A DNA stretch of 64,000 nt from Candidatus Micrarchaeota archaeon (GCA_043806595.1 JAZDGU010000004.1:8353-72352); one strand, 5' to 3'. Shown: positions 5,288-53,719, numbered from the stretch's first letter. Program-made: numbers and translations. Notes: generated by a model from the letters alone, not told the origin.

Positions 5288-5302
5288 TTTCCAGCGGTCG
5301 AA

Positions 5303-5455: not shown

Positions 5456-5513
5456 AGACATCTGATTATGGCAGACAAATTCCTGACGCACCCGAAAAAT
5501 GAGGGGGAAGGAA

Positions 5514-5933: not shown

Positions 5934-5994
5934 GCCACAGGTGCCGGAAAGTGACATAATGCAAGCCGCACGATGCGGACACGCGGGTCGGAGA

Positions 5995-6720: not shown

Positions 6721-6730
6721 GGCGACTCCC

Positions 6731-6835
6731 CTAGAATTTGGTGAAGACGGTCTTCGCGTAGTATGCGACTATCGTCACGAACAGCACGGCCGTGCCGACC
6801 AGCAGAAGATACTCGATTGCAGCCTGCGCCTTCAT
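6731..6835 (-). CDS. Flp-like type IV prepilin (class III signal peptide), 34 aa
   Basis: Hand-translated: MKAQAAIEYLLLVGTAVLFVTIVAYYAKTVFTKF. AQAAIEYLLL resembles the Flp/archaeal prepilin processing motif (G/A-x-x-A-I-E-Y). ATGA-overlapped with the upstream TadC-like gene. Confidence 0.55.
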   Translation of the reverse strand: MKAQAAIEYLLLVGTAVLFVTIVAYYAKTVFTKF

Positions 6836-7647
6836 GCGAACACCCGCGCGCCCGCCACCGCCCGGAAAACGAGCAGCGAAAACGGGGCAACAATACACAG
6901 ATACACGCCCGCTTTTTTAATGTTCCCCTCCTGCAGCGCCACGAAGCACGAGGACAGCGCGGAGAAGAGGAACAGGTAGAGCTGGCAGGCGAGAAAGAAC
7001 GCCGGCGGCACCGGCGCCGCGCCGTCAAGGGAGGCAAGGGACGCGCTCGACTGGATAAGGGAGCCGAGGATGAAGGGAAGCAGCAAGGCAGCCGCGGCGA
7101 GCAGCGTGTACTTCTGCAGGGACGCCAGCGCGGCGCCCTCTTCCGACAGGCGGAGCATTTCCCCGGCGTCCTCGGCGACGCCGTGGACCGCGCGCGAGAG
7201 CTGGCCGCCGGACTCGTGGAGCGAGACAAGCATGCGGGAGGCGCGCGAGAACGCGGGGGAGCCGTATTCTGCGGAGACCGCGGCGAACGCCCTGGCTGCT
7301 GGCACGCCGCGCCCGGCCATGGCAGAAACCCGCGCGAACGCGGAGCCGGTCTCGCCGCCGCAGGACGCGGCCTCGCAAAGCAGCTTCTCGAAGGGGGCGC
7401 CGGGAGGGGCCGAGGTCATGCGGAACAGCGCGGAGGGCAGGCCAAGCTCGAGGCCGCGGACTCTCCTTGAGAAGGCGTATTCCTCGAGCGCGGGGACGAG
7501 GAGCAGCGCTGCTGCCGCGGAATATGCGATGAGCAGGTAATCCGCTGCGAGGCCGCGGAACGCCGCGAACGCGACCGCGGAAGCGAGAATTGACGCGACG
7601 AAGTAATGGGGCAGCCTGCTACGGAAGTACTGCCATGCGGGTCCCAT
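6832..7647 (-). CDS. TadC/GspF-domain membrane protein (one T2SS-F domain)
   Basis: 271 aa, TM segments at both ends with a cytoplasmic GspF-like core (LVSLHESGGQLSRAVHGV). ATG abuts the stop of the 1129-aa gene. Confidence 0.55.
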   Translation of the reverse strand: MGPAWQYFRSRLPHYFVASILASAVAFAAFRGLAADYLLIAYSAAAALLLVPALEEYAFSRRVRGLELGLPSALFRMTSAPPGAPFEKLLCEAASCGGETGSAFARVSAMAGRGVPAARAFAAVSAEYGSPAFSRASRMLVSLHESGGQLSRAVHGVAEDAGEMLRLSEEGAALASLQKYTLLAAAALLLPFILGSLIQSSASLASLDGAAPVPPAFFLACQLYLFLFSALSSCFVALQEGNIKKAGVYLCIVAPFSLLVFRAVAGARVFA

Positions 7648-10600
7648 CTAGAGTTCCACCTTCCGCGGGCGGTTGCGGGCGAGCGCGGTTCCGGCAAGCG
7701 CGGCGAGGCCGACGGGGGCGAGCCATAGGTAGTCCGGCTGGTTGGATGGAACCGAGCGGGGGACGAGGCGGGCCGAGATTTCGGATGCGGCAAGGTAGGC
7801 GTCGAGATAAAGCTCCTGCGAGATGCCGGCGTCGATTGCCTCGAGGGCTAGCCTGTCCTCCTCGCCGCCGAACTGGCCTACGCGGCTACGCGCGATTTCC
7901 GCCTGATCCAGCGCCATCTCCCGGATTTCCGAGTTGTATGAGTAAAGCGCCGAGGAAGCGCCTTGCAGGGATGCGAGGAAACTCGAGATTCTTGCCGCAG
8001 ACTGCCTGCCCAGCACATCCGGGTCCTTCTCCACAGCATTCGCAACCGCATCGAGCTGCTTGAGTGCAGCCGAAGCCGACTTGAATTCCGCTGCTGCGGC
8101 TGCGGCAAGCGCGGGCTTGCCCGCCCTGGAGGACGAGAAGAAGCGGGAATATTCCTCAATGGCGGTCGAAAAATCCGTTCGCGAGGCCGAGAAGTTCTCC
8201 AGCAGTTCGGAGACCGCCTGCGTCGAATCGGGTGCGCCTTCCGCGCCGGCCGGGTTCCATGCGGCCGCGGATGCCGGCGCGCCTACAGCGTCGGACGCGG
8301 GCGGGGGCGTCGCAAGGATTGCGGGCTGCGCGCCCTCCATCGACGCAAGGGACTGTTCGACCTCGTAGGCGGCCTCGAGCGCCTCCTCCCAACGCGAATC
8401 CAAGGCAAGGCTCTTGGCGTCCGAGAGTTTGGCCTGAAGCGGGGAATCCGGCACGGACGCAAGGCGTTCATCGAGCTCGGCGAGCTTGAGCCGGAACGCA
8501 TCCTCGGAGAAGCCCGCGCATTCGACGGACAGCGCGACGGAACGGGCCTCGCCCTCGCGCCAGGCACCTGAAGAAAGCCTCGCCCAGAGCATTCCTCCGG
8601 CATGCCCGACCGACGCCTTCAGTTCTGGCGGGAAGGACGCATTCGCGGAAAGTATTTCGCACGGCAGGGAGTCGTCGAACCGGAGTTCCGCGGAGCCGAG
8701 GTCCGAAAAAACGTTCCGGTAGTGTAGCGCGTAATCGAACCGTACGGGCAGGCCGTAAACGGGAACCGTTGTCCGGGAGGCGGAATGCTCGAACGGGTTT
8801 GCGGAGAAGAATGTGATTTCCAGATCGGTCCTGCCGGATGCAGCGTCGAGGACCAGCTCCAGCCAGCCTTTGGAGAACGTATCGCCGTAGGGCGCGGAAG
8901 ACGACACGGAATAATTCGAGCCCGGGGGAGCCCGAATCCGGAACAGCACGGGCAGGGGCAACGAGGAGTCGATTGAAACGGAAACCGCCTTCTCGGCGGA
9001 ATCCAGCCCAGCGGCAGACGCGCGCTCATTCATTGCGACAATCCGCGACGGCACCGCGGAGAAGGCGATGGCGACGGAATAATCCGATTGGATTACGCCG
9101 GAGAAGACCGCGCGCAGGCCGCCCTGACCCGATTCAACGGAAAGTCCGGGGGAGGCGTTCACAACGCGGGCGTCGGAGGCGTTGAACGGAAGGGCGACAT
9201 AAAACTTTTCCGGGGACTCGAAGGGCAAGGAATTCCCGAATGAGACCCGGGCTTCAACGTCGGCCCGCGCCCCAGGCTCGGTGGGGACAGCTGAAAATTG
9301 GACGAGCATGCTCCCCTCCAGCTCGCCCTGGATAAGCCGGCCTTTGTCCTTCTCCACGCCTGCGCGCACTGACGAGAGAAAAACCCGCATCGGCTTGAGG
9401 CGCCCGACGGCCTGCAAAGGGTCCAACTTGCCGCCGTGGAAAAACCCGGAATAAGCGGAAAGTGCATCGCGCTCGCCCGCCGAAAGGAACGCCTCCGCGG
9501 CCTCGGCGAATGCGAAGTCGGATTCGACGGAAGCGAACTCCTCGAACGCAGCGCGCCGCAGGCCTTCCTCGATGCCCAACAGTTCTCCGGAAAGAACCCT
9601 GACCGCGGCGTAATTGCCCTCGGAAGGCTCGGACAGGCGGCCGAGTGCGGACGCAACGGTCGACAGCCTCTGCCGGAACGCGGTGACGTCGATGCCGTCC
9701 TTCTCCGCGCCGGCGAGAAGGCCGCCGAGGCGCTGCGCCGCGCCTTCCGCCTCGGAATGGGCGAAGGCATATGCGTCCTGCGCGCCGCATGCCTCGCGGA
9801 TCCTGCCGAGGAAGACCAGCTGGGCCAGCAGGTGCGTGATCCTCGCGCCCGCCGAATTCTTCGACGCGTATTCGACGCGCATCTTCCCGAAATCGGAGAG
9901 CATCGACTGGAGCACGGCATACGATACCGGCTCGCCGCGCCTGCCTTCGGCAAGGAGCCTCACTTCCGCTTCTTCCCTCGCGGACCTTCCCTCGAGCAGC
10001 ATGCGCGCCGAGGACGCCGACTCCATGAGCTCGCCCCCGCCGTCCGAAATTCCCTCGAGGATGGCGAGTGCGCGCCGGCGCAGGACCACGGCGCGGCCGA
10101 GGTAGCCGCGGCTCCTCGCCGAAAGCAAATCATCCGCCTGCCTGGCAACCAGCTTTGCGAGCGACCCGTCCTCCTCGAGTGCGCGCACCCCGTCCTTGAA
10201 GGAGACCGGCCCGCTTGAGGGCTCGAAGATGCCGCCGTAGATGTACGGATACGCCTCCTCCGGGATGTCGGCAAGCTCCTCCTGCTTGATGCGGGCGAGC
10301 ACTGCATCCGCGGCCAGCCGTGCCACCTCGAGTGCCTCGCCGAGGCTCCGGCTCGCCTGCCACATGCCGGTTATGGATTCGTCGATGCGGCGGGCAAGCG
10401 AAAAAGTGCACGCCAGCACGGAATTCGGGCCGGCGAGGTCCTGCAGCACCGACAAATTGGCGATGTTCGCGAGGTAGTCCTCGCTGAGGGCGCGGAGCTT
10501 TGACGAAGACGAGACCATCCTCTGCCCGAGGGAGGTGCCGTCCGACGACGAGGAAAGGAGATGGCGCTCGGTCTCCCTGATTTCGTTGCGCACGCCCTGG

Positions 10601-11037
10601 GCGAAGTCATCGGACTCGTCCTGCAGGGCCTCGAACTCCGCGAACCGCGAGTCAAGCGCCTCGAGTCCGGCGCGGGCAGCCGAGGACGCCTCGTTGAGCG
10701 CGTCGACGGCCAGGTAGTGGCAGCCGAGGACGACGAGCGGCCGCAGGTGCGGGGCGATGTGGAACACATCCTGCACGGATGCGAGCAGCTTAGCGTGCCG
10801 GAGGTGCGTGCGGGCGGAATCGTAGTGCGCAAGCGCCTTGGCGAAACCCGCGCCTTGCAGCACGGGCAGCCCATCGAGGTCCATCGCCGACACGTAGCGG
10901 CAATTCGAGGACAGCGAGGCGAGCTTGACGAAGGAGACGTGCACTTCCGGAAGAAGGTAGTTGTATTCCGAAAGCGATGAGGCGCCCGCGAGGAACGCGA
11001 GCAAAAGCGAGGCAAAGACGGCACGCAAGCGAATCAC
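7648..11037 (-). CDS. large secreted alpha/beta protein, N-terminal signal peptide and C-terminal TM anchor with basic tail (1129 aa)
   Basis: Signal-like N-terminus (MIRLRAVFASLLLAFLAGASS). Ala/Leu/Glu/Arg-rich helical halves flank a Ser/Val-rich beta region. C-terminus LAPVGLAALAGTALARNRPRKVEL. No Walker A motif. Translationally coupled to the TadC-like gene. Confidence 0.6.
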   Translation of the reverse strand: MIRLRAVFASLLLAFLAGASSLSEYNYLLPEVHVSFVKLASLSSNCRYVSAMDLDGLPVLQGAGFAKALAHYDSARTHLRHAKLLASVQDVFHIAPHLRPLVVLGCHYLAVDALNEASSAARAGLEALDSRFAEFEALQDESDDFAQGVRNEIRETERHLLSSSSDGTSLGQRMVSSSSKLRALSEDYLANIANLSVLQDLAGPNSVLACTFSLARRIDESITGMWQASRSLGEALEVARLAADAVLARIKQEELADIPEEAYPYIYGGIFEPSSGPVSFKDGVRALEEDGSLAKLVARQADDLLSARSRGYLGRAVVLRRRALAILEGISDGGGELMESASSARMLLEGRSAREEAEVRLLAEGRRGEPVSYAVLQSMLSDFGKMRVEYASKNSAGARITHLLAQLVFLGRIREACGAQDAYAFAHSEAEGAAQRLGGLLAGAEKDGIDVTAFRQRLSTVASALGRLSEPSEGNYAAVRVLSGELLGIEEGLRRAAFEEFASVESDFAFAEAAEAFLSAGERDALSAYSGFFHGGKLDPLQAVGRLKPMRVFLSSVRAGVEKDKGRLIQGELEGSMLVQFSAVPTEPGARADVEARVSFGNSLPFESPEKFYVALPFNASDARVVNASPGLSVESGQGGLRAVFSGVIQSDYSVAIAFSAVPSRIVAMNERASAAGLDSAEKAVSVSIDSSLPLPVLFRIRAPPGSNYSVSSSAPYGDTFSKGWLELVLDAASGRTDLEITFFSANPFEHSASRTTVPVYGLPVRFDYALHYRNVFSDLGSAELRFDDSLPCEILSANASFPPELKASVGHAGGMLWARLSSGAWREGEARSVALSVECAGFSEDAFRLKLAELDERLASVPDSPLQAKLSDAKSLALDSRWEEALEAAYEVEQSLASMEGAQPAILATPPPASDAVGAPASAAAWNPAGAEGAPDSTQAVSELLENFSASRTDFSTAIEEYSRFFSSSRAGKPALAAAAAAEFKSASAALKQLDAVANAVEKDPDVLGRQSAARISSFLASLQGASSALYSYNSEIREMALDQAEIARSRVGQFGGEEDRLALEAIDAGISQELYLDAYLAASEISARLVPRSVPSNQPDYLWLAPVGLAALAGTALARNRPRKVEL

Positions 11038-11080
11038 CCTACGCCCTTTGCCTCAAGGGGGTTTGGGGGGCTAGCAATTA

Positions 11081-11332: not shown

Positions 11333-11337
11333 GAGCG

Positions 11338-11679: not shown

Positions 11680-11685
11680 GATTCC

Positions 11686-13074: not shown

Positions 13075-13179
13075 GACGGGAATAACCGCGCCGGCGTTTA
13101 AAATGGTTTGTCGGAGGAGGCCCGGGGGAAAGTTAATAAATGCCGGAAAATACGGTAGAGATTACAAAATGGTGATCGC

Positions 13180-14535: not shown

Positions 14536-14559
14536 AATGAAGGCAGAAGCAACGCGGCC

Positions 14560-17490: not shown

Positions 17491-17587
17491 TTGGTAACCC
17501 CCCCTGAAGGGTTTCTGCGCGCCGCGCTTAAAAATATTGTGATTCACTGCGGAAAAGGTAAAAAGCCCTCCGGCGCCAAACAAGGGC

Positions 17588-33627: not shown

Positions 33628-34398
33628 TCAGACGCGCTTCTTGCCTGCGGCCTTGACTGCGGCGCGCACGTCGCGGATTTTCTTGCGCACGTCACCCTCC
33701 TCGAAGGCCGTGCCTATCTGGATGCCGTCGGCACCTGCCGCGATGATGTCGCCGGCCTGCACGGGAGTGCGCGCTCCGCCGGCGTAGAAGTAGAACATCT
33801 CCTTCGCGCACGCCTTCGCGACCGCGCTCACCAGCTCGACTGGCGCGGGCTCGGCGGCTCCGCTGCCGACGTCCGTTATGAGCACGTGCGAGCCGCTGAA
33901 CTTCGCGGCAAGCGCGCACGAATAGGCGAGGTCGGGCCGGTCTCGGGGCACTATGTTCGCGTTGCCTATCCAGCCGACGGTGCGGCCGGGCTCGAGCACG
34001 AGGTAGCTCGTGGGAATGGCCTCGATCTTCATCCTCTGGACAACGGGCGCGGCCTGTATCTGCGCCGTGGAAAGCCAGTAGACGTCCCTGCTGTTCATCA
34101 TGTGCATGAAGTAGATTGCGTCGGCGTAGTGCGAGAGACCCGAGATGTTGCCCGGAAAAAGCACGACGGGGATGCTCACCTCCTCCTTGATCATCTTGAC
34201 GGTGTCGTCGAGGACCGAGCCCTGCGCGCCGATGCTTCCGCCGATGAGGATGACGTCGCTGCCCTCGTCGAAGGCGACCTTCGCTATCTGCACGCCGCGC
34301 TCGAGGTAGCTCTTGTCGGGGTCGATGAGCGAGAACAGCATGGCTCCCTCGGACTCCAGCTTTTCGGCGTAATATTTCTCTATCCTACCCGGATGCAT
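33628..34398 (-). CDS. geranylgeranylglyceryl phosphate synthase
   Basis: 256 aa PcrB/GGGPS family (LIDPDK ... ILIGGS ... FPGN ... GGARTP TIM-barrel motifs). Confidence 0.85.
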   Translation of the reverse strand: MHPGRIEKYYAEKLESEGAMLFSLIDPDKSYLERGVQIAKVAFDEGSDVILIGGSIGAQGSVLDDTVKMIKEEVSIPVVLFPGNISGLSHYADAIYFMHMMNSRDVYWLSTAQIQAAPVVQRMKIEAIPTSYLVLEPGRTVGWIGNANIVPRDRPDLAYSCALAAKFSGSHVLITDVGSGAAEPAPVELVSAVAKACAKEMFYFYAGGARTPVQAGDIIAAGADGIQIGTAFEEGDVRKKIRDVRAAVKAAGKKRV

Positions 34399-34486
34399 GG
34401 CAACACACCCTTTCCACGCGCTATTTTGCCGCGGCGGCTTTAAAAGAGGTTGCCCTGAAAGGCCTTCTGGCCCGCCTGCCCCGGTG

Positions 34487-35413
34487 CTATTTCCGCAGGC
34501 GGCTTATCTTCTCGCGCAGTCTGGCAAGGCTCTCGTCGCTCAGAAGCCGGAGCAGCTCCGCCGAGGGCGTCATCTCAAACATGACATAGGCCTCCTTGCT
34601 GGCTTTGCGCTCCCGCACCGCAAAGCCTGCGTCCGAGAAAAACGAGTGCGCCGAATCCCTGTCCTTCGAATGCACTTCGAACAACAGTTTTTCGGGAAGG
34701 GAACCGCCGGGCCATTTCCCATTATAATAAATCGAATAGACCAGCCCCGCGTAGTCTACAGCCCGGTCTTCGCGGGCATGAGTTTTCCAGAGGGCAATCA
34801 AGTTCATGATGCTGGCCCGAATTTTTTCCGCAGGCAGAATGCCCGCGCGTTTTTCCTGCTGGCCGTGCATGGCCGCAAAATATGAGCGCATATGGCTTTC
34901 CAGCCGCTCTTCGAGGGGAGGGGCCGCTCCCCCCCAGAACACAGCAGGAGCAGTGTGATGCTCGGAGACCGGAATGCGCTGGCCTTTCGCTTCAAGCGCC
35001 CCGATTATCACGGACCTCCGTAACCCATGGCCCCTGAAGAACTCCGCGATTATTCCTTCTGCTCGTTCTGGCGGAAGGCTCCTGTGCTGAAGCAGGCGCC
35101 GGGATGCCTCGACGGCACGGTAAAGGTTGAGCTTCACCGCCGCCCTGGCCGCCGCCTGGGTAGACAGGCCTTCGAGTCCAACAAAACGCGCGGTTTCGGG
35201 GTAACGACTGGATGAAGCCAAAAACCGTTCCGTTTCCTCGTCGAAGATAAGCGGGCTCCTTCTGATGCGTCGGTGCTGGCCTAGGCTTAAAAGGAGGCGG
35301 TCGTGGGCTTCCGAAAAACGGCGCTCGGCGGGATTCCGCAATTCACGGGGCCTCTCGAAGGCCGCCTGGAGCGGGTTGTGTTCGCGAAAGGGGGGCTTCC
35401 TCATGAAGGACAC
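34487..35413 (-). CDS. hypothetical protein
   Basis: 308-aa ORF with non-repetitive composition. No domain recognised. Confidence 0.4.
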   Translation of the reverse strand: MSFMRKPPFREHNPLQAAFERPRELRNPAERRFSEAHDRLLLSLGQHRRIRRSPLIFDEETERFLASSSRYPETARFVGLEGLSTQAAARAAVKLNLYRAVEASRRLLQHRSLPPERAEGIIAEFFRGHGLRRSVIIGALEAKGQRIPVSEHHTAPAVFWGGAAPPLEERLESHMRSYFAAMHGQQEKRAGILPAEKIRASIMNLIALWKTHAREDRAVDYAGLVYSIYYNGKWPGGSLPEKLLFEVHSKDRDSAHSFFSDAGFAVRERKASKEAYVMFEMTPSAELLRLLSDESLARLREKISRLRK

Positions 35414-35539
35414 CGAGGCAAGGTCATGGCGAAATAAACTTCAATAATACCCTTAAAAATGGAGGTTAAAAAGGAGGCTGCCTGGGGGGCGGCAGCGGGA
35501 GAAAAGACATTTATTAACCCGGCAATGCACTTGACGGTA

Positions 35540-36406
35540 ATGCACAACGCGGCGCGCGGCCAGGCCGCGCTGGAGTACGTCATACTGCTCGCAGGCATAC
35601 TCCTCATCATCTTCCTCACCATAGCGGTCATGCAGGCGCTGCAGGGGCGCTCAAAAGCTCAGATTGAGGAGAGCGTGGGGACGTGGAAAACGTTCGTCTG
35701 CCTCTCCAAGTACCTCGCCGAACCCGACAGCACGCTGCTCGCATACAAGCTCGACGGCCTGCAGGGCGGGACAACGCCGGACTCCAGCGCCAAGCACAAC
35801 GACGGCATCCTCAAGGGCGGCCTTCCCACGCTCGACTCGGCGAACTGCAAGTTCCCGCCGTGCCTTCACTTCGGCGCAGCCCCGGGCCACGTCGAGAGCA
35901 GCAAGCCCATCGAGGGCGTGGGGAGCATGACGTTTCTGGCTTGGATAAGATTCGACGACAGCGGGGACGGCAGCCAGCCCGTCATAGCGGCCATCGCCAA
36001 CTCGTTCGACCTCTCGTTCACGCAAGTCGATTACATAGTCTGGTCGATGGACGACCCTCCCCCGCCGGCCATGGAAGCCGCGTTCCACTTCTCGGTCTGG
36101 ACCGGCCTCTTCAACCCCGTAATAGTGGATCCGGAGGACATGACCCTCGAGGGATACCACCACATCGCCGCGACGTACAACGAAACCACAGGCACGGCGA
36201 ACGTCTACATCGACGGCAGGCTCAATGCCACTGTAAGCGGCCCTGCGAACAAGCCGATGTGGCACTCCAATCTGCCGCTGTCAGTGGGCAACAAGCAGAA
36301 CGACGCGTCACAGGCGTTCAAGGGCAACATCGACCAGGTCGAGTTCTACAGCAGGGAGCTGACCGCGGAGGAAATCATGCAGGAGATAAGGTGCCAGCCC
36401 GCCTGA
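35540..36406 (+). CDS. class III signal peptide (pilin-like) protein with LamG/concanavalin-like lectin domain
   Basis: N-terminus MHNAARGQAALEYVILLAGILLIIFLTIAV is prepilin-like. C-terminal FKGNIDQVEFYSRELTAEEI matches the Laminin_G_3 signature. TATA TTTATTAA about 25 nt upstream suggests a leaderless start (35525 is an alternative). Confidence 0.65.
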   Translation: MHNAARGQAALEYVILLAGILLIIFLTIAVMQALQGRSKAQIEESVGTWKTFVCLSKYLAEPDSTLLAYKLDGLQGGTTPDSSAKHNDGILKGGLPTLDSANCKFPPCLHFGAAPGHVESSKPIEGVGSMTFLAWIRFDDSGDGSQPVIAAIANSFDLSFTQVDYIVWSMDDPPPPAMEAAFHFSVWTGLFNPVIVDPEDMTLEGYHHIAATYNETTGTANVYIDGRLNATVSGPANKPMWHSNLPLSVGNKQNDASQAFKGNIDQVEFYSRELTAEEIMQEIRCQPA

Positions 36407-36887
36407 ACCTGCGCTTCATCCTGCGAAGGCCGGCAAGGATCTTCGCGTTGTGCGAGCCCCGCCAGTAGGCCTTGCCGCACGAGCCGCAGACGAGGAATTC
36501 CGCCGCATGAAGCCAGGACTTCCTCGGCACTTTGCCTTCCAACGATTTTTTCGGCGTTTTCTTCAGGCGGCCGCTGCACTCGGGACAGACAGACGTGCTC
36601 GGCACCGAATCCTCCCGGATTGCGGAAAGGTCGAGGCCGGCGGCCCTGCAGAACTCCAGCACCTGGCCGTCGAGGTCCGAGGAACGCAGGAGCAGGCAGC
36701 GGCAGTAGCTCGATGATTTTACAGAGAGAGCGACGTCGCGGGTCACGAGGACAGCCCTCTCCCCGATGCACTGGCGGATTATGTCGTCGTCGGATTGCGA
36801 GCGCGGGGGCGAGACACGAACGCCGAGCATGCGCAGCCAGCGCGCGAGCCTCGCGAGCATCACGTCGGCGACGAAATTCATGCGCAT
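36375..36887 (-). CDS. Mut7-C RNase domain (DUF82) protein with C-terminal zinc ribbon
   Basis: 170 aa. N-terminus MRMNFVADVMLARLARWLRMLGV matches the Mut7-C/DUF82 start. C-terminal CPECS ... CGSCG. 32-nt convergent overlap with the LamG gene. Confidence 0.65.
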   Translation of the reverse strand: MRMNFVADVMLARLARWLRMLGVRVSPPRSQSDDDIIRQCIGERAVLVTRDVALSVKSSSYCRCLLLRSSDLDGQVLEFCRAAGLDLSAIREDSVPSTSVCPECSGRLKKTPKKSLEGKVPRKSWLHAAEFLVCGSCGKAYWRGSHNAKILAGLRRMKRRFRRAGTLSPA

Positions 36888-36951
36888 GAATGGCTCTCCG
36901 CGGGGAGCGGTTATAAAGGCTTATATACGCCGCGAGGGAAAGGCAGTCATG

Positions 36952-39051
36952 CCGCCCAAGCAGAGGAAGGCGAAGGAGGAGAAGTTCGAGTCGCTCTACA
37001 CGCAGAAGTCGCAGGAATACGTCGAGGAGGAGAAGGAGCAGAGGAGGGAAAGCTTCTTCGTCGGGCTGACGCGGTTCATGTACTCCCGCAACAGGTCCGG
37101 CGGCGCGGGCGCTAAGTTCTCGCCGGAGCAGAAGGCGCTATTCGACTTCCTCAACTGGAACATCCCCGCGGAGGAGTACTACGCTACGGCGAAGGCGCTG
37201 CTGACCTACGGGCTGGGCGTCGGCGTGGTGTTCGGCGCGGCGTTCTATTTCTACCTCGGGCCGGAGCTCACGACGGACACGATGATGATATACCTCGGAA
37301 GCCTACTGTGTCTGCTCCTGCCGGTGACGCCGAGCATTTTCTACCAGTATTATCCGGGGATGGCGGCGGAGCGCGAGAGGATGCTTTCGCTCGCGTACAT
37401 CCCGGAGATCGTAAACTACCTCGTGATGAGCCTGAGGCTCAACCCCAACCTCGAGAAGGCCGTCGAGTTCGCGGCGAACCACGGCCGGGGGAAGATAGCG
37501 GACGAGCTCAAGGAGCTCGTATGGGAGGTGCAGATAGGGACGTTCCTCAGCGTGGAGGAGGGCCTGGACGCGATGGCTTACCGATGGGGGGGCTACAGCG
37601 ACGACTTCAAGCACGCGCTCATGATCATCCGCTCGTCCTCGCTGGAGACGGACCACGTGCGAAGGGTAGAGCTGCTGGAGAAGGCCTCGTTGGACGTGCT
37701 CGAGGGCAGCAAGGAGAAGATGGACATCTACGCGCGCAACTTGCACCAGCCGACGGTGTTCCTCTACTACTTCGGGATACTCCTGCCGCTCATGCTCGCC
37801 ATTATCCTGCCCATCGGGTCGGCGTTCGTGAAAGGCCTGCCGATCGCGCAGGCGGGGTTCATATTCCTCATATACTGCGTACTCCTGCCCGCGGGCATCT
37901 ACATCTACGGGAACAGCATCCTCGGGGGCAGGCCGCCGACTTACATCCCGCCGCAAATCACCGACCGCTACCCCGGGCTGCCGAGAAGGGGCAACATGCG
38001 GTTCCTCGGCATGGAGTTCTCGTACACCCTCGCGGCCGTGGTCGTCTTCGCCGCGGTGCTGCTCGCGGGCAACTTCGCGGACAACCTCACGCTCCAGCAG
38101 ATTCCGACGTACCTGCAGGACGAGTACCTCGCCTCGACGCCGCACGTGGAGCTGCTCGGGCTCAAGCTGTACGTGTTCTCGATACTCGCGGTGGTGCTTG
38201 CGGTAAGCTTCGCCTTCTCGGTCTACCTCTGGGGGAAGTTCGGCGAGCGGAAGAAGGTGCAGGACGAGATACGCGAGATGGAGAGGGAGTTCAAGGACGC
38301 GACGTACGTGCTCGCGTCGAGGCTGGGGGAGAACAAGCCTATGGAGGACGCGCTCGCCTACGCCATCGACTTCCTCCCGAAGAGCAAGGTCGGGGAGAAG
38401 TTCTTCAGGCGCGTGCTTGAGAACGTCACTTTGCTCGGCATGACGCTGGAAGCGGCCGCGTTCGACAGGACGTACGGCGCGCTGCGCTACATCCCCTCGC
38501 AGATCATCCGCAGCGGCACGAGGCTCATGGTGGACAGCGTGGAGCTCGGGGTCAACGTAGCCGCCAAGTCGCTCATGAGCCTCAGCTTCCAGATGAGGAA
38601 CGCCCAGAAGATAGACGAGACGCTGCGCAGGCTGCTCGCGGACATCACGACGCTGCTGAGCACCATGTCCACGTTCGTCGTGCCGGTAGTCATCGCCGTA
38701 GTCAGCTCGCTTCAGACCATCATCATAAACTCGTTCGCGGGCATGAGCCTCGGGGATTCTCTGGGGAACACCAACGTCCAGCTCGGCGGCCTGAGTTTCA
38801 AGGGCTTCTCGTCGCTGCTGGACACCTCCGGCATAAGGGAGACCACGGCGTCGCCCGGGGAGTTCCTCCTGATAATGGGGCTGTACGTGGTCGAGGTCGT
38901 CATACTGCTGACGTACTTCAACTCGCAGGTCGAGGACAGCAACAACAAGCTGCACACCTACACGAGCATCGCCAAGACGCTGCCCATCGCGGCGATAATC
39001 TTCGCCGTCACGGCGTTCCTCGCGAGCAGCACCCTCTCCGGATTCGGATGA
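36952..39051 (+). CDS. FlaJ/TadC-like polytopic membrane protein with two T2SS-F (GspF) domains
   Basis: 699 aa from the ATG preceded by GAGGGAAAGG. Two cytoplasmic GspF-like modules each followed by TM triplets. The ORF track starts at 36766. Confidence 0.7.
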   Translation, partial: PPKQRKAKEEKFESLYTQKSQEYVEEEKEQRRESFFVGLTRFMYSRNRSGGAGAKFSPEQKALFDFLNWNIPAEEYYATAKALLTYGLGVGVVFGAAFYFYLGPELTTDTMMIYLGSLLCLLLPVTPSIFYQYYPGMAAERERMLSLAYIPEIVNYLVMSLRLNPNLEKAVEFAANHGRGKIADELKELVWEVQIGTFLSVEEGLDAMAYRWGGYSDDFKHALMIIRSSSLETDHVRRVELLEKASLDVLEGSKEKMDIYARNLHQPTVFLYYFGILLPLMLAIILPIGSAFVKGLPIAQAGFIFLIYCVLLPAGIYIYGNSILGGRPPTYIPPQITDRYPGLPRRGNMRFLGMEFSYTLAAVVVFAAVLLAGNFADNLTLQQIPTYLQDEYLASTPHVELLGLKLYVFSILAVVLAVSFAFSVYLWGKFGERKKVQDEIREMEREFKDATYVLASRLGENKPMEDALAYAIDFLPKSKVGEKFFRRVLENVTLLGMTLEAAAFDRTYGALRYIPSQIIRSGTRLMVDSVELGVNVAAKSLMSLSFQMRNAQKIDETLRRLLADITTLLSTMSTFVVPVVIAVVSSLQTIIINSFAGMSLGDSLGNTNVQLGGLSFKGFSSLLDTSGIRETTASPGEFLLIMGLYVVEVVILLTYFNSQVEDSNNKLHTYTSIAKTLPIAAIIFAVTAFLASSTLSGFG

Positions 39052-39154: not shown

Positions 39155-40114
39155 ATGGACGGTTTTTCGGGGGCGATGGTCTGCGGAAGGCTGCCGCGGT
39201 CGGACTCTACTGCAGCAGTGCACCGGCTTGTCCGCGACGGGCACGCCGAAGCGGGCGAGTTCGGGAAGGCAGTGGGGGCCGACCGGGCAAGGCTGCTGGA
39301 GGCGCAAAAGGGGTTCGCGTTCGCCAGCGGCGGGCAGTCCGACTGGCTCGACCTCCTGCGGCCGATTGCGAAAACCTTCGGAGGCTTCGAGAGGAGGGAA
39401 ACCGCAGGCGAGGACTCGGTCGGCCCGGTGACGCGCTGGTTCCGCACGAACACGTTCTACCGCAAGCCCAACATCGTGTCGGAAATCTCGTGCGAAGGCG
39501 GGGAAATCGCCGACGCCCTGCCCGGACTGAAGGGAGGGATTCTGTCCCTCATCGGGCCGTACACTTTCGCGGCGCTCGTGCAGGACTCGCACTATTCCGA
39601 CCCGGCGGAGCTCGCCCTAGGGTACATGAATGCCGTCGCGAAGAGCCTGCCGGCCGTGCAGAGGAAGGGCTATAACTGCCTCGTGCTGCTCGAGCCGGGC
39701 GTCGGCTACGACCTCTCGAGGGAAGGGCTGCGCGAATCAGGATGGGCCGCGGAGTGCATTTCGCTAGCGAAGGCGGAAGGCTGGCAGCTCGGCGTGCACT
39801 TCCCCCTTGCGGACGCGCGCCACGCGATCGCGGTCGCAGAGGAATCCGAGGCCGACTTCCTCGGGATAGACTGCCTGCGCACGGAGCCGGAGGGGGTCTC
39901 CACTGGAAAGGGCCTGCTGCTCGGCGTGGCGGACGGCGCGAGGGCGGGAATCGAGGCGCTTGAAACCTCGGAAAAGATGGTGCGGGAGTTCGCCGGCGCG
40001 GAATTCTCCGGCAAATTCTACGTAGGGAGCAACGACAGGCTCTGGGACGTGCCGTTCGGCGTCGCCCTGGAAAAAATCATGCTGCTGTCGCAACTCAGCG
40101 GTCGATTGGGATGA
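39155..40114 (+). CDS. MetE N-terminal-domain-like protein (cobalamin-independent methionine synthase family, non-catalytic barrel)
   Basis: 319 aa. UroD/MetE-like barrel (GPVTRWFRTNTFYRKP). 4-nt overlap with the downstream catalytic-domain gene. Confidence 0.55.
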   Translation: MDGFSGAMVCGRLPRSDSTAAVHRLVRDGHAEAGEFGKAVGADRARLLEAQKGFAFASGGQSDWLDLLRPIAKTFGGFERRETAGEDSVGPVTRWFRTNTFYRKPNIVSEISCEGGEIADALPGLKGGILSLIGPYTFAALVQDSHYSDPAELALGYMNAVAKSLPAVQRKGYNCLVLLEPGVGYDLSREGLRESGWAAECISLAKAEGWQLGVHFPLADARHAIAVAEESEADFLGIDCLRTEPEGVSTGKGLLLGVADGARAGIEALETSEKMVREFAGAEFSGKFYVGSNDRLWDVPFGVALEKIMLLSQLSGRLG

Positions 40115-41295
40115 ACAAACCGTTTGTCACGCAGGAAATCGGGAGCATCCAGCGGCCCATCTGGAGGCAGAAGCTCTCCGCCCCAGCAGACAAGGCGTGG
40201 ATTGCGGACGCGCTGGCGTGGGGCGAAAGGCTGGGGGTCGGGGAGAGGAAGGAGCTCGCGGACGGCAGGGGCGGCGGGCTGCTCGAGAAGGACGGAGCCC
40301 TCAGGACGGAAGAGGAAAGGGCGCGCATCGTGGAAATCGCGTCGATCTACGTCATCCGGATGTTCGAGGGCGTCGGGCTCGACCGGGTATTCAACGGCGA
40401 GCAGCCGCGGACCGAGATGTACGACTTCCTCGCGAGGAACACCGAGGGCATCGAGCCCGCGGGCGTGCTGAACTCGTTCGACGCCAACTACTTCCGCAAG
40501 GGCATCGTGGCCTCGCCGGTCAAGGTGAAGGAAGAGGGGGCGCGCTTCTTCGAGGAGGAATTCGATTTCGTCCGCCGGCACACCGACCGGGAGGTGAAGC
40601 CGTGCCTCACCGGGCCGTACACGATGGCCGACTGGTCGTACATAGAGCACCACCGCGCCGTCCGCGAACGTGCAGGAGAAGCGCCGCTGCAGGCGCTGCA
40701 GGGCGGAAGGCGGGACGCCATCATGGACTTCGCGGAACACGTGCTGAACCCCGTGGTGCGCAGGCTCGCGGACGCCGGGGCGAAGGTGATCCAGGTGGAC
40801 GAGCCGGCTGCCGCGACCAACGAGATGGAATCCGGCGTGTTCACCGCGGCCATCAACGCATCGTTTGAGGGCGTGCCGGCCGGCGTCGAGAAGGCGGTCC
40901 ATTTGTGCTACAGCAGCTACCCTGCGCTCTTCCCCGCGCTCGCGGAATGCGTCGCGGACTCGTACCTCATCGAATTCACCAACCACGCCTCGCCGACGCA
41001 CTTCCGTCCGGACGAGGTGAGTCCCGAGGCCTTCAAGGCGATTGGGCTGTTCAAGGAATACGGCATGGAAGTCAACGTCGGCGTCGGCGTCATCGACATA
41101 CACTCGGACGTCGTCGAGACCCCCGAGGTCGTCCGGGACAGGCTGCTGCACGCGGCGAGGCTGGTCGGAGACGCGGGGCGCGTGCAGGCCAACCCCGACT
41201 GCGGGCTGAGGACGCGACGGTGGGAGGTCGCCTACGCCAAGCTGAAAAGCATGGCGGAGGGCGCAGTGCTCGCAAGGAAGGAGGCGGGTGGTTGA
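40111..41295 (+). CDS. metE: cobalamin-independent methionine synthase catalytic domain (MetE C-terminal-like)
   Basis: 394 aa with IQVDEPA, HLCYSSY (zinc His/Cys) and NPDCGLRTR ... E, matching MetE catalytic motifs. Confidence 0.8.
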   Translation: MNKPFVTQEIGSIQRPIWRQKLSAPADKAWIADALAWGERLGVGERKELADGRGGGLLEKDGALRTEEERARIVEIASIYVIRMFEGVGLDRVFNGEQPRTEMYDFLARNTEGIEPAGVLNSFDANYFRKGIVASPVKVKEEGARFFEEEFDFVRRHTDREVKPCLTGPYTMADWSYIEHHRAVRERAGEAPLQALQGGRRDAIMDFAEHVLNPVVRRLADAGAKVIQVDEPAAATNEMESGVFTAAINASFEGVPAGVEKAVHLCYSSYPALFPALAECVADSYLIEFTNHASPTHFRPDEVSPEAFKAIGLFKEYGMEVNVGVGVIDIHSDVVETPEVVRDRLLHAARLVGDAGRVQANPDCGLRTRRWEVAYAKLKSMAEGAVLARKEAGG

Positions 41296-42223
41296 ATTGC
41301 TTCCCGGCCCGGTGATGTTCGAGGTCTCGCCGCCGTCCAAGAGGTCCTCCGCTGATGCCGTCGGCAAAGCGGTGGCCAAGATCGCGGACGCGGTCAAACG
41401 CACGCGCTGCATAGACGCGTTGAACGTGCCCGAGATCATCGCCGAAAACCGCGACGGCGAGCCCCTGTACCGCAACATGGACGTGCTCGAGTTCGCCTCG
41501 CTGGTCTACAAGGCGACGGGCAAGCCCGTCGCGGTCAACAAGGTCGTGGCGTTCTTCAGCTCCGCCGAGGAATTCGACTCATGGCTCGGCAGGGCCTCGG
41601 CACAGGGAGGAATCTGCGCGGCGGTCCTCGTGGGCGGAAGCAGCGACGCGGTCAGGTACCTGGGGCCGCCGGTGATAGAGGCCGACCGCAGGGCGACCGC
41701 GTTCGCCGGCACCGGCGTTGGCAACATCTCCATCCCCGAAAGGCAGGGGGAGGCGGCGCGCGTCCTCGCGAAAACCGCGGCCGGCTGCTCGTTCTTCACG
41801 ACGCAGGTAATCATGGAGCCGGAGAGCACGCTCGCACTGCTCAAAGAATATTCCGGAAAATGCGGGGAAACCGGGATTGCGCCGGCGACGTTCTACCTGA
41901 GCCTCGCGCCAGTGGGGGACGCGCACGACCTCGAGTTCCTCAAGTGGCTGGGGGCGAAGGTGCCTCAGGAAGTCGAGAGCAGGCTCGCCGGCAGCTCGGA
42001 CATGGCCTCCGAGTCCGTGGAAATCGCCTTGCAGACGTTCAATGCGATACTCGATTCCGCGGAAAGCCGCGCGCCCGACGTGCCGCTCGCGCTCAACGTC
42101 GAACCGATATCTATGCACAACCTCGAGCCGGCGGAAAGGCTGCTGCTCCGGCTGGAGAAGAGGACCCGCACGGCGCCCAAATGGATTGCCGCGCACGGCG
42201 AGGCGGCGGTCTCGAGCCGCTGA
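41288..42223 (+). CDS. metF: methylenetetrahydrofolate reductase-like protein
   Basis: 311 aa. N-terminal FEVSPP matches MTHFR FEFFPP. TIM-barrel-like pattern. Context with metE. Confidence 0.65.
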   Translation: MVELLPGPVMFEVSPPSKRSSADAVGKAVAKIADAVKRTRCIDALNVPEIIAENRDGEPLYRNMDVLEFASLVYKATGKPVAVNKVVAFFSSAEEFDSWLGRASAQGGICAAVLVGGSSDAVRYLGPPVIEADRRATAFAGTGVGNISIPERQGEAARVLAKTAAGCSFFTTQVIMEPESTLALLKEYSGKCGETGIAPATFYLSLAPVGDAHDLEFLKWLGAKVPQEVESRLAGSSDMASESVEIALQTFNAILDSAESRAPDVPLALNVEPISMHNLEPAERLLLRLEKRTRTAPKWIAAHGEAAVSSR

Positions 42224-43125: not shown

Positions 43126-43377
43126 CTACTTCGGCGGCGCGGCCTCCGGCGGTAGCTGGCCCACGGGGATTTCCACGAAGCGCACGTTGTCGTCGTCCGC
43201 GGTGTAGATTATGCGGATTACCCCGCTGACGAGCTGCCTGTCATTGAGCTTGTCGAAGAACATGAGCGACGTGTCCTCCTTGACGCCGACGGCGCCCTCG
43301 AACACCGCGTCTATCGGCGAGAAGCCGGCCTTCTTGAGGGACTCTATCATCTTGAGCACTTCGTCCTTGACCTTCAT
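43126..43377 (-). CDS. hypothetical protein (83 aa)
   Basis: Start at the internal ATG (MKVKDEVLKMIESLKK ...). Soluble and charged. No domain recognised. Confidence 0.4.
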   Translation of the reverse strand: MKVKDEVLKMIESLKKAGFSPIDAVFEGAVGVKEDTSLMFFDKLNDRQLVSGVIRIIYTADDDNVRFVEIPVGQLPPEAAPPK

Positions 43378-53396: not shown

Positions 53397-53719
53397 GGGC
53401 GCAGGTTTTCAGCATAGACTTCGTCGTCGCGACGACCATACTCCTGCTCGGGCTCGGCATAGCCCTGCAGACCGTCGACCTCGTCCAGAAGGACGCCGAC
53501 ACCTACGCGAACATGCAGACCAACAACGCCGAAACCGTCGCGGAAGGCCTGATGCGTTCCGTAGAGGGGTTCGCCAACCACTCGCCGTACTGCTTCAGGT
53601 ACAGCAACGGCACCAGCACGTGCGGCGGCTTCTCCTGCGCGTTCAACACGTTCACCGCGACGAGGCTCGTCAACTGCGAGGGCGCGGTGTGCTCGATGGA
53701 GGTAAGGACCTGTGAATAA
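53387..53719 (+). CDS. class III signal peptide pilin-like protein 2
   Basis: 110 aa. MHLRAQVFSIDFVVATTILLLGLGIAL. Start overlaps the upstream stop. The ORF track merges it into 53171..53719. Confidence 0.5.
   Translation: MHLRAQVFSIDFVVATTILLLGLGIALQTVDLVQKDADTYANMQTNNAETVAEGLMRSVEGFANHSPYCFRYSNGTSTCGGFSCAFNTFTATRLVNCEGAVCSMEVRTCE

What the first reader, a model, noticed from the sequence alone, without database searches (positions are those of the whole stretch)
35540..39051. LamG-lectin pilin-like protein paired with a two-domain FlaJ/TadC platform, again without an ATPase
A prepilin-like N-terminus (RGQAALEYVILLAGILLIIF) is fused to a Laminin_G_3 domain (GNIDQVEFYSRELTAEEI). It is followed by a 699-aa FlaJ-like protein with two GspF domains. 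The intervening strand carries a Mut7-C RNase gene that overlaps the pilin gene tail by 32 nt. This is the second orphan platform protein in 64 kb; both lack a cis ATPase.
Basis: partly seen in the sequence, partly recalled or inferred. Interest (0 to 1): 0.55.

Follow-up and report, generated by a model that had tools for sequence, protein, structure and literature searches.

The report
Scattered archaeal pilus genes, ATPase elsewhere
This is an ordinary fragment of the type IV pilus-like machinery of a Micrarchaeota (DPANN) archaeon: a membrane platform protein next to a lectin-tipped pilin-like adhesin, with the motor ATPase gene lying outside the window and probably elsewhere in the genome, as it does in a relative.

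Summary
The genes are real. ORF 35540-36406 (+) has a class III/type IV prepilin-like N-terminus (MHNAARG|QAALEYVILL...) and a LamG domain (Pfam 8e-21). ORF 36375-36887 (-) is a Mut7-C RNase whose tail overlaps the pilin tail by 32 nt. ORF 36949-39051 (+) is a 700-aa, 9-TM FlaJ/TadC/GspF-type platform. Only its first T2SSF module is detected, just under Pfam's cut-off; the second has weak support only.

The window comes from a Candidatus Micrarchaeota MAG. The platform is a well-conserved ortholog in this group (334 hits, 45-73% identity, full length). In more distant relatives it sits directly downstream of a ~750-aa T2SSE ATPase and upstream of 4-6 small pilin genes. In the window's sublineage (six genomes) it sits at PcrB-[Mut7-C]-platform with no ATPase nearby. 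In one of these genomes the orthologous ATPase lies about 165 kb away on the same contig.

So "orphan" reflects scattered gene order, not an ATPase-less machine. LamG pilins occur at this site in only two of the six genomes. LamG proteins linked to pilus loci in Micrarchaeota were already reported (Golyshina 2017).

Verdict: a new member of a known kind, of low interest.

The parts
35540..36406 (+). LamG-domain type IV pilin-like protein, 288 aa (NCBI: 'LamG domain-containing protein')
   Evidence: ORF. The NCBI 288-aa product is 100% identical. Pfam Laminin_G_3 8.1e-21 and Class_IIIsignal 22.3 bits, below GA 23.7. Orthologs or paralogs occur in L003 at 29-33% identity. Family members of the same size and architecture are P0138, P0159, P0166 and P0178.
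35540..35638 (+). Predicted class III signal: leader MHNAARG with cleavage after Gly7, then the mature N-terminus QAALEYVILLAGILLIIFLTIAVMQA (Q+1, E+5, hydrophobic helix)
   Evidence: Read from the sequence. It is the only [KR]G[QAS] + uncharged 17-residue stretch preceding a long reading frame in the window; one other match, at 26700 (-), runs into a stop after 27 residues. Residues 6-48 are 53-56% identical to the L003 proteins, against 23-30% for the rest. Cleavage itself is inferred.
35918..36376 (+). LamG / concanavalin A-like jelly-roll domain
   Evidence: Pfam PF13385 matches residues 154-306 of the 315-aa ORF. About 12,000 library representatives match at E<=1e-3, mostly giant multi-LamG surface proteins.
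35508..35519 (+). TATA-box-like element (cATTTATTAAcc) about 22-30 nt upstream of ATG 35540; fits a leaderless transcript and the M28 start
   Evidence: Sequence read. Inference only; no promoter model was run.
36375..36887 (-). Mut7-C (PIN-like RNase + zinc ribbon) protein, 170 aa; 32-nt convergent overlap with the pilin gene
   Evidence: Pfam PF01927 3.9e-32. Coordinates. The same position and orientation, divergent from the platform, is seen in L003/L004, L005, L056 and L057 but not L006. No PADLOC hit.
36888..36948 (.). 61-bp divergent intergenic region with two back-to-back TATA-like boxes: TTATAAAG (read on the - strand for Mut7-C) and TTATATA (for the platform)
   Evidence: Sequence read. 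Inference only.
36949..39051 (+). FlaJ/TadC/PilC/GspF-type polytopic platform protein, 700 aa, 9 predicted TM segments, two K/R-rich cytoplasmic domains
   Evidence: 100% identical to NCBI V1787_00600. 334 homologs at 45-73% identity over the full length, many named 'type II secretion system F family protein'. AF2 model pLDDT 72.7. Foldseek local hits to the EpsF and OutF cytoplasmic domains, prob 1.0, TMt 0.72-0.76. Hydropathy.
37414..37812 (+). T2SSF module 1 (cytoplasmic helical domain 1; residues 156-288 of the 700-aa protein)
   Evidence: Pfam PF00482, E=3.2e-5, 24.3 bits against GA 25.2. Many orthologs carry a precomputed PF00482 hit.
38236..38664 (+). Putative divergent T2SSF module 2 (cytoplasmic domain 2; residues 430-572)
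   Evidence: The secondary-structure pattern of module 1 repeats here and the segment is K/R-rich and flanked by TM segments. 3 of 12 orthologous C-halves hit PF00482, best E 7e-4; the window's own does not. For the C-half model (pLDDT 58), EpsF, OutF and PilC are the only Foldseek hits with prob 0.6-0.7. hhalign of the N half against the C half is not significant.
33628..34398 (-). PcrB (GGGP synthase family); synteny anchor of the ATPase-unlinked sublineage
   Evidence: Pfam 9.8e-46. 76-92% identical orthologs flank the platform in L003, L005 and L006, and a PcrB gene does so in L056 and L057.
6832..7647 (-). The other 'orphan' platform: a single-domain T2SSF protein, 271 aa, part of a second pilus-like system
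   Evidence: Pfam T2SSF 28.5 bits, above GA 25.2. Its ortholog P0124 in L055 lies 7 kb downstream of a 527-aa T2SSE ATPase and two further T2SSF genes. None of these is in the window.
7648..11037 (-). 1129-aa predicted surface protein (N-terminal signal, C-terminal TM anchor) abutting the 271-aa T2SSF gene
   Evidence: Translation. 25% identity over 941 aa to the 1142-aa protein that precedes the T2SSF ortholog in L055. No Pfam hit.

Best explanation
The region holds two dispersed components of the standard type IV pilus-like (archaeal Tad/Epd/Pil-type) machinery of a Candidatus Micrarchaeota archaeon, plus an unrelated neighbour.

The 700-aa protein is the inner-membrane platform (FlaJ/TadC/PilC/GspF family). 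With a hexameric T2SSE ATPase docked on its cytoplasmic domains, it extracts processed pilins from the membrane and polymerises them.

In the ancestral arrangement, still seen in many Micrarchaeota, the genes run ATPase-platform-pilins. In the window's sublineage the platform gene was separated from the others and now sits in a housekeeping neighbourhood: PcrB(-), Mut7-C(-), platform(+). The ATPase and the prepilin peptidase are supplied in trans from elsewhere in the genome.

The LamG protein is a pilin-like substrate of this machinery. Its short basic leader (MHNAARG) is predicted to be removed by a prepilin peptidase. Its conserved hydrophobic N-terminal helix would insert into the filament core or stay membrane-anchored. 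The ~240-residue LamG jelly-roll would then be displayed as a lectin-like adhesin. It is most likely a minor or tip subunit, because it is much bulkier than the small pilins of related loci.

Mut7-C is a neighbouring PIN-like RNase gene. It shares a 61-bp divergent promoter region with the platform and overlaps the pilin's 3' end.

Shown: the gene identities, orthology, synteny patterns, absence of any ATPase from the window, and presence of the ATPase in trans in a syntenic relative.
Inferred: the presence of an ATPase and a peptidase in this genome, signal cleavage, assembly into a filament, and an adhesive role for LamG.
For: Origin and family:
- The window is from a Micrarchaeota MAG. The platform has 334 full-length homologs at 45-73% identity, all ~700 aa, with 139 invariant residues across 26 diverse members including the window protein.
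- It shows GspF-type fold hits to EpsF and OutF (prob 1.0), a near-threshold T2SSF hit, and 9 TM segments with two cytoplasmic domains.

Gene order in relatives:
- In L001, L007, L008 and L009 the ortholog directly follows a 750-760-aa T2SSE ATPase (1266 aa with an intein in L009). It precedes 4-6 small genes, several starting with KRGQ + a hydrophobic helix.
- 24 of the 45 ATPase loci from one-genome-per-species contigs have the platform 10-3600 bp downstream.
- The window clade (L003/4, L005, L006, L056, L057) shares PcrB-[LamG]-[Mut7-C]-platform with no ATPase within 10 kb.
- In the L006 genome the orthologous ATPase (68-76% identical to L001's, intein-split) is on the same contig JACRGC010000009.1 at 173-187 kb, while the platform is at 1-15 kb.
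- At least ten further ATPase loci lack a platform within 3-6 kb downstream.

Pilin:
- The RG|Q...E+5 motif and Class_IIIsignal E=1.3e-4.
- An N-terminus far more conserved than the globular part: 53-56% against 23-30%, and 91% against 27% between the L003 paralogs. This is the classic type IV pilin pattern.
- The same architecture recurs in P0138, P0159, P0166 and P0178.

Literature:
- LamG-like proteins are expanded in Micrarchaeota Mia14, and some are linked to its type IV pilus loci (PMC5498576).
- The ATPase/TadC module can work with pilins encoded in trans (PMC4858521).
Against: - The window's own genome could not be searched beyond 64 kb. Its assembly is not in the contig index, so the trans ATPase and prepilin peptidase are inferred from relatives, not shown.
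- No peptidase A24-type gene was found among the window ORFs scanned.
- Both the Class_IIIsignal and the T2SSF hits of the window proteins fall just under Pfam's gathering thresholds.
- The second T2SSF module has only weak support.
- LamG-pilin adjacency to the platform is seen in only two genomes, so a functional link between these two genes rests on general knowledge of pilin-machinery relationships.
- No expression or filament data exist.
Confidence: 0.75

Rival explanations
1. The platform is genuinely ATPase-independent in this lineage. It has been repurposed, for example as a membrane scaffold or channel for LamG adhesins or for another transport task, which would explain why it moved away from the ATPase and into a housekeeping neighbourhood.
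For: No T2SSE ATPase of either type is in the 64 kb. The PcrB-platform arrangement without an ATPase is stable across six genomes. ATPase and platform are otherwise regarded as a co-inherited module (PMC4858521).
Against: A genome with the same synteny keeps the orthologous ATPase intact on the same contig (L046). The window platform keeps every residue that is invariant across ATPase-linked orthologs. Unlinked ATPase genes are common among the loci examined.
Confidence: 0.07
2. The LamG protein is not a filament subunit. It is a surface protein that merely uses a class III-type or uncleaved signal-anchor N-terminus. It would either stay tethered in the membrane or join a bindosome-like surface assembly, as the Sulfolobus sugar-binding proteins with class III signals do. 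Its position near the platform would be coincidental.
For: Class_IIIsignal scores below Pfam's cut-off. The globular domain is large for a pilin. Adjacency to the platform is seen in only 2 of 6 clade genomes and at no other locus fetched. A homolog, P0122, carries an ordinary Sec-type N-terminus instead. Most LamG relatives are giant non-pilin surface proteins.
Against: The strongly conserved N-terminal 43 residues with Q+1/E+5 are characteristic of subunits that pack into a type IV filament core: 91% identity between paralogs whose LamG parts share 27%. Even a bindosome-type assembly needs the same peptidase, ATPase and platform machinery.
Confidence: 0.15
3. Mut7-C and the platform form a functional unit. 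They would be co-regulated from a shared bidirectional promoter, with the RNase acting post-transcriptionally on pilin or platform mRNAs, and the 3' overlap with the pilin gene providing antisense control.
For: A divergent Mut7-C/platform pair is found in 5 of 6 clade genomes. A 61-bp intergenic region carries two TATA-like boxes. A convergent 3' overlap with the pilin gene is also present in L003, at 47 nt.
Against: Mut7-C is absent from L006 and from all loci where ATPase and platform are adjacent. No known link between Mut7-C and pili turned up, and PADLOC gave no hit. Short 3' overlaps are common in compact, GC-rich genomes where stop codons are scarce.
Confidence: 0.03

Closest known systems
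Archaeal type IV pilus ATPase/TadC module (Haloferax PilB/PilC, Methanococcus Epd pili, Sulfolobus AapE/AapF and UpsE/UpsF; surveyed by Makarova, Koonin and Albers 2016, PMC4858521)
   Same: A polytopic ~700-aa platform with T2SSF-type cytoplasmic domain(s). Its orthologs sit next to a T2SSE ATPase and small pilin genes with class III signals. Pilins may be encoded in trans.
   Different: In this sublineage the platform gene is unlinked from its ATPase. The Micrarchaeota ATPase is unusually long, ~750 aa. The second T2SSF repeat is too diverged for Pfam.
LamG-like jelly-roll proteins linked to type IV pilus loci in 'Ca. Mancarchaeum acidiphilum' Mia14 (Golyshina et al. 2017, PMC5498576)
   Same: The same phylum and the same domain family, with the same proposed link to pilus loci and host adhesion.
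   Different: Here the LamG domain is directly fused to a pilin-type N-terminus and lies beside an ATPase-less platform locus. Homology to the Mia14 proteins was not tested.
Archaellum platform FlaJ/ArlJ
   Same: The same superfamily and a similar multi-TM, two-cytoplasmic-domain layout.
   Different: No archaellin, FlaH/ArlH, FlaF/G or FlaC/D/E genes appear in the window or in the related loci examined. DPANN archaea are reported to lack archaella.
Bacterial T2SS GspF/EpsF/OutF and T4P PilC
   Same: The cytoplasmic helical-bundle fold matches 2vmb, 3c1q and 5nbg (prob 1.0, TMt 0.72-0.76). 2whn appears as a hit for the C-half.
   Different: Sequence identity is 10-19%. The protein has 9 predicted TM segments and an extra N-terminal charged region, and it comes from an archaeal lineage.
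Sulfolobus bindosome substrates and haloarchaeal Tat-fimbria subunit TafC
   Same: These are non-canonical functional domains displayed on archaeal surface assemblies: sugar-binding proteins with class III signals, and TafC with a LamG-type domain. NCBIfam TafC matched weakly over the LamG region (E 6.9e-5).
   Different: The TafC score is 22 bits against a cut-off of 410, so this is not a TafC. Tafi are Tat-dependent, whereas this protein has a prepilin-type leader and no twin-arginine motif.

Membership tests
T2SSF / GspF-PilC-TadC-FlaJ platform family (PF00482) | At least one T2SSF domain recognised by the family model | tested here: inconclusive
   The window protein scores 24.3 bits against GA 25.2, E=3.2e-5. 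Many full-length orthologs carry a precomputed PF00482 hit and are named T2SSF family.
T2SSF / GspF-PilC-TadC-FlaJ platform family (PF00482) | Cytoplasmic helical-bundle fold of GspF/EpsF/PilC | tested here: met
   The AF2 model (pLDDT 72.7) gives Foldseek hits 2vmb_B, 3c1q_A and 5nbg_B with prob 1.0, TMt 0.72-0.76, rmsd 2.7-2.9 A.
   For: the secondary-structure and TM pattern repeats. 3 of 12 orthologous C-halves hit PF00482, best E 7e-4, though the window's own does not. EpsF, OutF and PilC are the only prob >0.5 hits for a low-confidence C-half model. Against: hhalign N against C prob 0.4, and no PDB sequence hit.
Archaeal type IV pilus system (ATPase/TadC module) | Cognate T2SSE (FlaI/PilB/VirB11-type) ATPase | tested here: not met
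   The feature is not met inside the window. It is met for orthologs: the ATPase is adjacent in L001, L007-L009 and many others, and in trans on the same contig in a syntenic relative (L006/L046). The rest of this genome was not testable.
Archaeal type IV pilus system (ATPase/TadC module) | Prepilin peptidase (FlaK/PibD/EppA, Peptidase_A24) | tested here: inconclusive
   No A24-type hit appeared among the 48 window ORFs scanned with Pfam. Not every small ORF was scanned, and the rest of the genome is unavailable.
Type IV pilin-like protein (class III signal peptide, PF04021) | A short basic leader ending in [KR]-G, then Q/A/S at +1 and a ~20-residue hydrophobic helix | tested here: met
   MHNAARG|QAALEYVILLAGILLIIFLTIAVMQA. 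The motif is conserved in L003 and in P0138, P0159, P0166 and P0178.
Type IV pilin-like protein (class III signal peptide, PF04021) | Score above the family's curated threshold | tested here: not met
   22.3 bits against GA 23.7, E=1.3e-4. The relatives' hits are flagged 'weak'.
Type IV pilin-like protein (class III signal peptide, PF04021) | Cleavage by a prepilin peptidase and incorporation into a filament | not testable with these tools
   This needs N-terminal proteomics or an in vitro PibD/FlaK/EppA assay, and filament mass spectrometry or cryo-EM.
LamG / concanavalin A-like lectin superfamily (PF13385) | Domain model match above threshold | tested here: met
   E=8.1e-21, 75.2 bits against GA 27.6.
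Mut7-C RNase (PF01927) | Domain model match above threshold | tested here: met
   E=3.9e-32, 111.8 bits against GA 23.3, covering 142 of 146 model positions.
Archaellum (FlaJ/ArlJ) | Co-occurrence with archaellins and FlaH/FlaI/FlaF/FlaG | tested here: not met
   No such Pfam families occur among the called genes of nine related loci or the window ORFs scanned. The literature reports that most DPANN lack archaella.

The most novel reading that the evidence does not exclude
The canonical ATPase-platform gene pair has been broken repeatedly in Micrarchaeota; unlinked ATPases fall in at least three clusters of an ATPase NJ tree. In one sublineage the relocated platform gene has become an insertion site for cassette-like LamG-tipped pilins. 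These keep a near-identical N-terminal assembly module (91% identity between paralogs) while the lectin domain diverges to ~27%. The cassettes would act as exchangeable host-recognition tips that set the host range of these obligate episymbionts.
Probability: 0.2. Interest if true: 0.45.

Novelty: new member of a known kind. Interest (0 to 1): 0.2.

Why it matters
It matters little beyond annotation. It shows that an "orphan" platform in a short window of a DPANN genome should not be read as an ATPase-less machine, because in this Micrarchaeota sublineage the pilus genes are simply scattered.

Two modest points may interest specialists. First, the ATPase/TadC pair, usually treated as an inseparable module, is unlinked in a sizeable fraction of Micrarchaeota species. 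Second, there is a small family of ~285-aa proteins that fuse a conserved pilin N-terminus to a fast-evolving LamG lectin domain. These are plausible host-attachment tips for organisms that depend on cell-cell contact, and are candidates for testing in the few cultured Micrarchaeota.

Tried and rejected
- **Internal duplication of the platform by profile-profile alignment.** hhalign of the N half against the C half gave prob 0.4 over only 25 columns. The alignment is too shallow (Neff 2.4) to decide.
- **PDB sequence searches with platform profiles.** No GspF, PilC or FlaJ hit appeared. Only fold comparison worked.
- **C-half structure on its own.** It came out at low confidence (pLDDT 58), so its Foldseek hits are only suggestive.
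- **Looking up the window's own contig to find its ATPase.** The assembly is not in the contig index.
- **A remnant second LamG pilin in the 1.1-kb spacer 34399-35539.** tblastn found none.
- **A defence-island reading of the Mut7-C / orphan-ORF / LamG stretch.** PADLOC gave no hits.
- **TafC (Tat-fimbria) membership.** 22 bits against a cut-off of 410; rejected.
- **The 83-aa + ~1100-1400-aa gene pair near the other T2SSF as a relic of the main pilus locus.** The window's 83-aa protein is unrelated to L001's 83-aa protein. The large protein instead matches the partner of a second, separate T2SSE/T2SSF system.
- **NCBIfam on the platform, the 308-aa ORF and the small T2SSF.** No hits.

Full report
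**What is in the sequence**

The region 35.4-39.1 kb holds three genes with coding-type GC3 of 0.81-0.91.

- NCBI's product for this gene is 288 aa, "LamG domain-containing protein", 100% identical.
   - A TATA-like ATTTATTAA lies about 22-30 nt upstream of that ATG, which fits a leaderless archaeal transcript.
   - Pfam gives Laminin_G_3 at E=8.1e-21, and Class_IIIsignal at 22.3 bits, just below the 23.7-bit cut-off.
2. ORF 36375..36887 (-) is a Mut7-C RNase (E=3.9e-32). Its 3' end overlaps the pilin's 3' end by exactly 32 nt.
3. The long ORF 36766..39051 (+) is annotated in NCBI from the internal ATG at 36949, as a 700-aa hypothetical protein (V1787_00600, 100% identity).
   - It is therefore 700 aa from 36949, not 699 aa from 36952.
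   - That leaves a 61-bp divergent spacer to Mut7-C containing two TATA-like boxes.

**Origin of the window**

The best hits are all Candidatus Micrarchaeota/Micrarchaeia (DPANN archaea). The neighbourhood is housekeeping: PcrB, prefoldin beta, thermosome, PCNA, ScpA, topoisomerase and the CCA-adding enzyme.

**The platform protein**

- Pfam sees a single T2SSF stretch (residues 156-288 of the 700-aa protein) at 24.3 bits against a 25.2-bit cut-off. NCBIfam sees nothing.
- Family membership is nevertheless solid.
  - 334 homologs were recovered. The 120 listed are 45-73% identical, nearly all over the full ~700 aa, and many carry PF00482 or the name "type II secretion system F family protein".
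  - 139 columns are invariant among 26 diverse members, including the window protein.
  - An AlphaFold2 model (pLDDT 72.7) gives local Foldseek matches to the cytoplasmic domains of EpsF (2vmb, 3c1q) and OutF (5nbg), with probability 1.0 and TM 0.72-0.76.
- Hydropathy gives nine TM segments and two K/R-rich soluble segments, 137-265 and 430-572. The helix pattern of the first module is repeated in the second.
- Direct evidence for a second T2SSF domain is weak.
  - The window's C-half fails the model even at E<=10, and only 3 of 12 orthologous C-halves hit it, best E 7e-4.
  - hhalign of the two halves is not significant.
  - A C-half-only model is of low confidence (pLDDT 58). Even so, EpsF, OutF and PilC are its only hits with probability 0.6-0.7.
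- I therefore treat "two GspF domains" as likely but not demonstrated.

**Is it an orphan?**

No secretion ATPase is encoded in the 64 kb.
- tblastn with the ATPase of a related locus found nothing.
- A six-frame hmmsearch --max with a three-sequence ATPase profile gave a best E of 4.
- tblastn with the ATPase of the second system also found nothing.

Genomic context in relatives explains this absence.
- In four more distant orthologs (47-54% identity; L001, L007, L008, L009), the platform lies directly downstream of a T2SSE ATPase of 750-760 aa (1266 aa with an intein in L009). It lies upstream of four to six small genes. Several of those small genes begin with KRGQ followed by a hydrophobic helix.
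- A scan of one genome per species with an ATPase alignment returned 45 loci. In 24 of them the platform follows the ATPase within 10-3600 bp.
- The closest relatives of the window protein (P0003, P0005, P0008, P0011, P0014; 55-71% identity) all share the window's arrangement: PcrB(-), optional Mut7-C(-), platform(+), with no ATPase within 10 kb.
- In one of these genomes the ATPase ortholog is on the same contig. JACRGC010000009.1 carries the platform within positions 1-15,172 (L006) and the intein-containing 1279-aa ATPase ORF within positions 173,493-186,872 (L046). That ATPase is flanked by unrelated genes, with a Rad50-like gene downstream.
- At least ten further ATPase loci lack a platform within 3-6 kb downstream. 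They fall in about three clusters of an NJ tree.

The most economical reading is that the gene order is scattered in this sublineage and the ATPase acts in trans. I could not verify this for the window's own genome, because its assembly is not in the contig index.

**The other "orphan"**

- ORF 6832..7647 (-) is a single-domain T2SSF protein that passes Pfam's threshold (28.5 bits). It abuts a 1129-aa predicted surface protein.
- Its only detectable ortholog, P0124 (37% identity), lies on the same 423-kb contig as the P0005 platform. The order there is 527-aa T2SSE ATPase, T2SSF, T2SSF, DnaJ, a 146-aa gene, a 1142-aa protein, this T2SSF, then PAC2.
- The window keeps only the last three genes of that series.
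- This matches the report of two distinct type IV pilus systems in the Micrarchaeon Mia14 (PMC5498576). Both systems are fragmented in the window.

**The LamG pilin-like protein**

- The N-terminus MHNAARG|QAALEYVILLAGILLIIFLTIAVMQA has a short basic leader, Gly at -1, Gln at +1 and Glu at +5, followed by a hydrophobic helix.
- It is the only such motif in the window that precedes a long reading frame. The one other match, at 26700 (-), runs into a stop after 27 residues.
- Two tandem homologs sit at the same site in L003/L004, both with MKRG|QGAFEYVLL....
- Residues 6-48 are 53-56% identical between the window protein and these homologs, against 23-30% for the rest. The two L003 paralogs share 91% in this segment but only 27% in the LamG part. 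This is the signature of type IV pilin-like proteins: a constrained assembly helix and a free globular domain.
- An exhaustive HMMER search found about 12,000 LamG relatives, mostly giant multi-LamG proteins. It also found four cluster representatives of the same ~285-aa architecture with the same leader and four conserved cysteines.
- The link to the platform is not conserved. A LamG-pilin HMM hits only the window and L003/L004 among the 57 ATPase or platform loci. The insertion site, between PcrB and Mut7-C, is empty in L005, L056 and L057; L006 lacks both the LamG pilin and Mut7-C.

**Mut7-C**

It is divergent from the platform in five of the six clade genomes, and absent from L006 and from all ATPase-linked loci. 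A convergent 3' overlap with the pilin gene recurs in L003, at 47 nt. I found no evidence for a functional link, and PADLOC gave nothing.

**Mechanism (inferred)**

1. The pre-LamG protein inserts into the membrane by its N-terminal helix.
2. A prepilin peptidase, not found in the window, removes MHNAARG.
3. The platform, energised by the trans-encoded hexameric T2SSE ATPase docking on its cytoplasmic domains, extracts the subunit and adds it to a pilus built mainly from small pilins encoded elsewhere.
4. The bulky LamG jelly-roll is displayed as a lectin-like adhesin, most probably as a minor or tip subunit.

For an episymbiotic DPANN archaeon, the obvious target is the host cell surface. This was already proposed for LamG proteins of Mia14, "some of them linked to type IV pili loci" (PMC5498576). 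LamG proteins of other DPANN have likewise been proposed as adhesion proteins (PMC7414124). That pilins can be served in trans by an ATPase/TadC module is established for euryarchaea (PMC4858521).

**Novelty and verdict**

Every component belongs to a known family. Orthologs are already annotated as T2SSF and LamG proteins, and the association of LamG proteins with pilus loci in this phylum is published.

What is mildly new is twofold. The ATPase/platform pair is unlinked in a whole Micrarchaeota sublineage, and apparently in others. And a small family of LamG-tipped pilins with a cassette-like conservation pattern can be defined.

This is a new member of a known kind, and interest is low (0.2). 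The most novel reading not excluded is exchangeable host-recognition pilin tips inserted at a relocated platform locus. It has perhaps a 20% chance and would be of moderate interest.

Noticed in passing
L009:5281-9081; L039-L050 (e.g. L046:5992-9831): The ~750-aa pilus ATPase of many Micrarchaeota is interrupted by inteins at four or more different insertion points (about residues 468, 490, 546 and 620 in L001 numbering). In L046 and L009 the ORF grows to 1266-1279 aa, with LAGLIDADG/Intein_splicing hits.
   Followed up: partly
window 5995-11332 (- strand): A fragment of a second pilus-like system: a 1129-aa surface protein, a 271-aa single-domain T2SSF and PAC2. It is syntenic with L055, where a 527-aa T2SSE ATPase and two more T2SSF genes lie upstream. 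Those upstream genes are missing from the window.
   Followed up: yes
window 43129-43377 (-): A small soluble 83-aa protein with no Pfam hit, 81% identical to its L003 ortholog and therefore more conserved than the platform. In L005, L006 and L056 an 83-84-aa gene, taken as the same one from size and position only, lies just downstream of the platform on the opposite strand; in L003/L004 a rhomboid gene lies between them. Function unknown.
   Followed up: partly
window 39155-42223 (+): A ~3.4-kb block of MetE-like (Meth_synt_1/2) and weak MTHFR-like genes is inserted between the platform and the rhomboid/83-aa genes. The rhomboid and 83-aa genes follow the platform directly in L003/L004, where no such block is present.
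   Followed up: partly
window 34487-35413 (-): A 308-aa Arg-rich ORF between PcrB and the LamG pilin has atypically low GC3 (0.68, against 0.83-0.92 for its neighbours). It has no Pfam, NCBIfam or PADLOC hit and no counterpart in the syntenic relatives. It may be a lineage-specific insertion or not a gene at all.
   Followed up: partly
window 13180-14535 (+): A secreted CARDB + fibronectin-III/purple-acid-phosphatase-N surface protein with a C-terminal TM anchor. It is the kind of adhesion module reported for Micrarchaeota surface layers.
   Followed up: no
L003:7696-9451: Two tandem LamG pilin paralogs share 39 of 43 N-terminal residues but only 27% identity in the LamG domain. This suggests either gene conversion or strong constraint on the assembly helix, with diversification of the lectin part.
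   Followed up: partly
window 16762-17769 (-), 53712-55321 (+): Hydrophobic (16762-17769) or membrane-like in codon composition (53712-55321) ORFs of 224-335 aa without any Pfam hit. They were checked as possible prepilin peptidases, but nothing supports that.
   Followed up: partly
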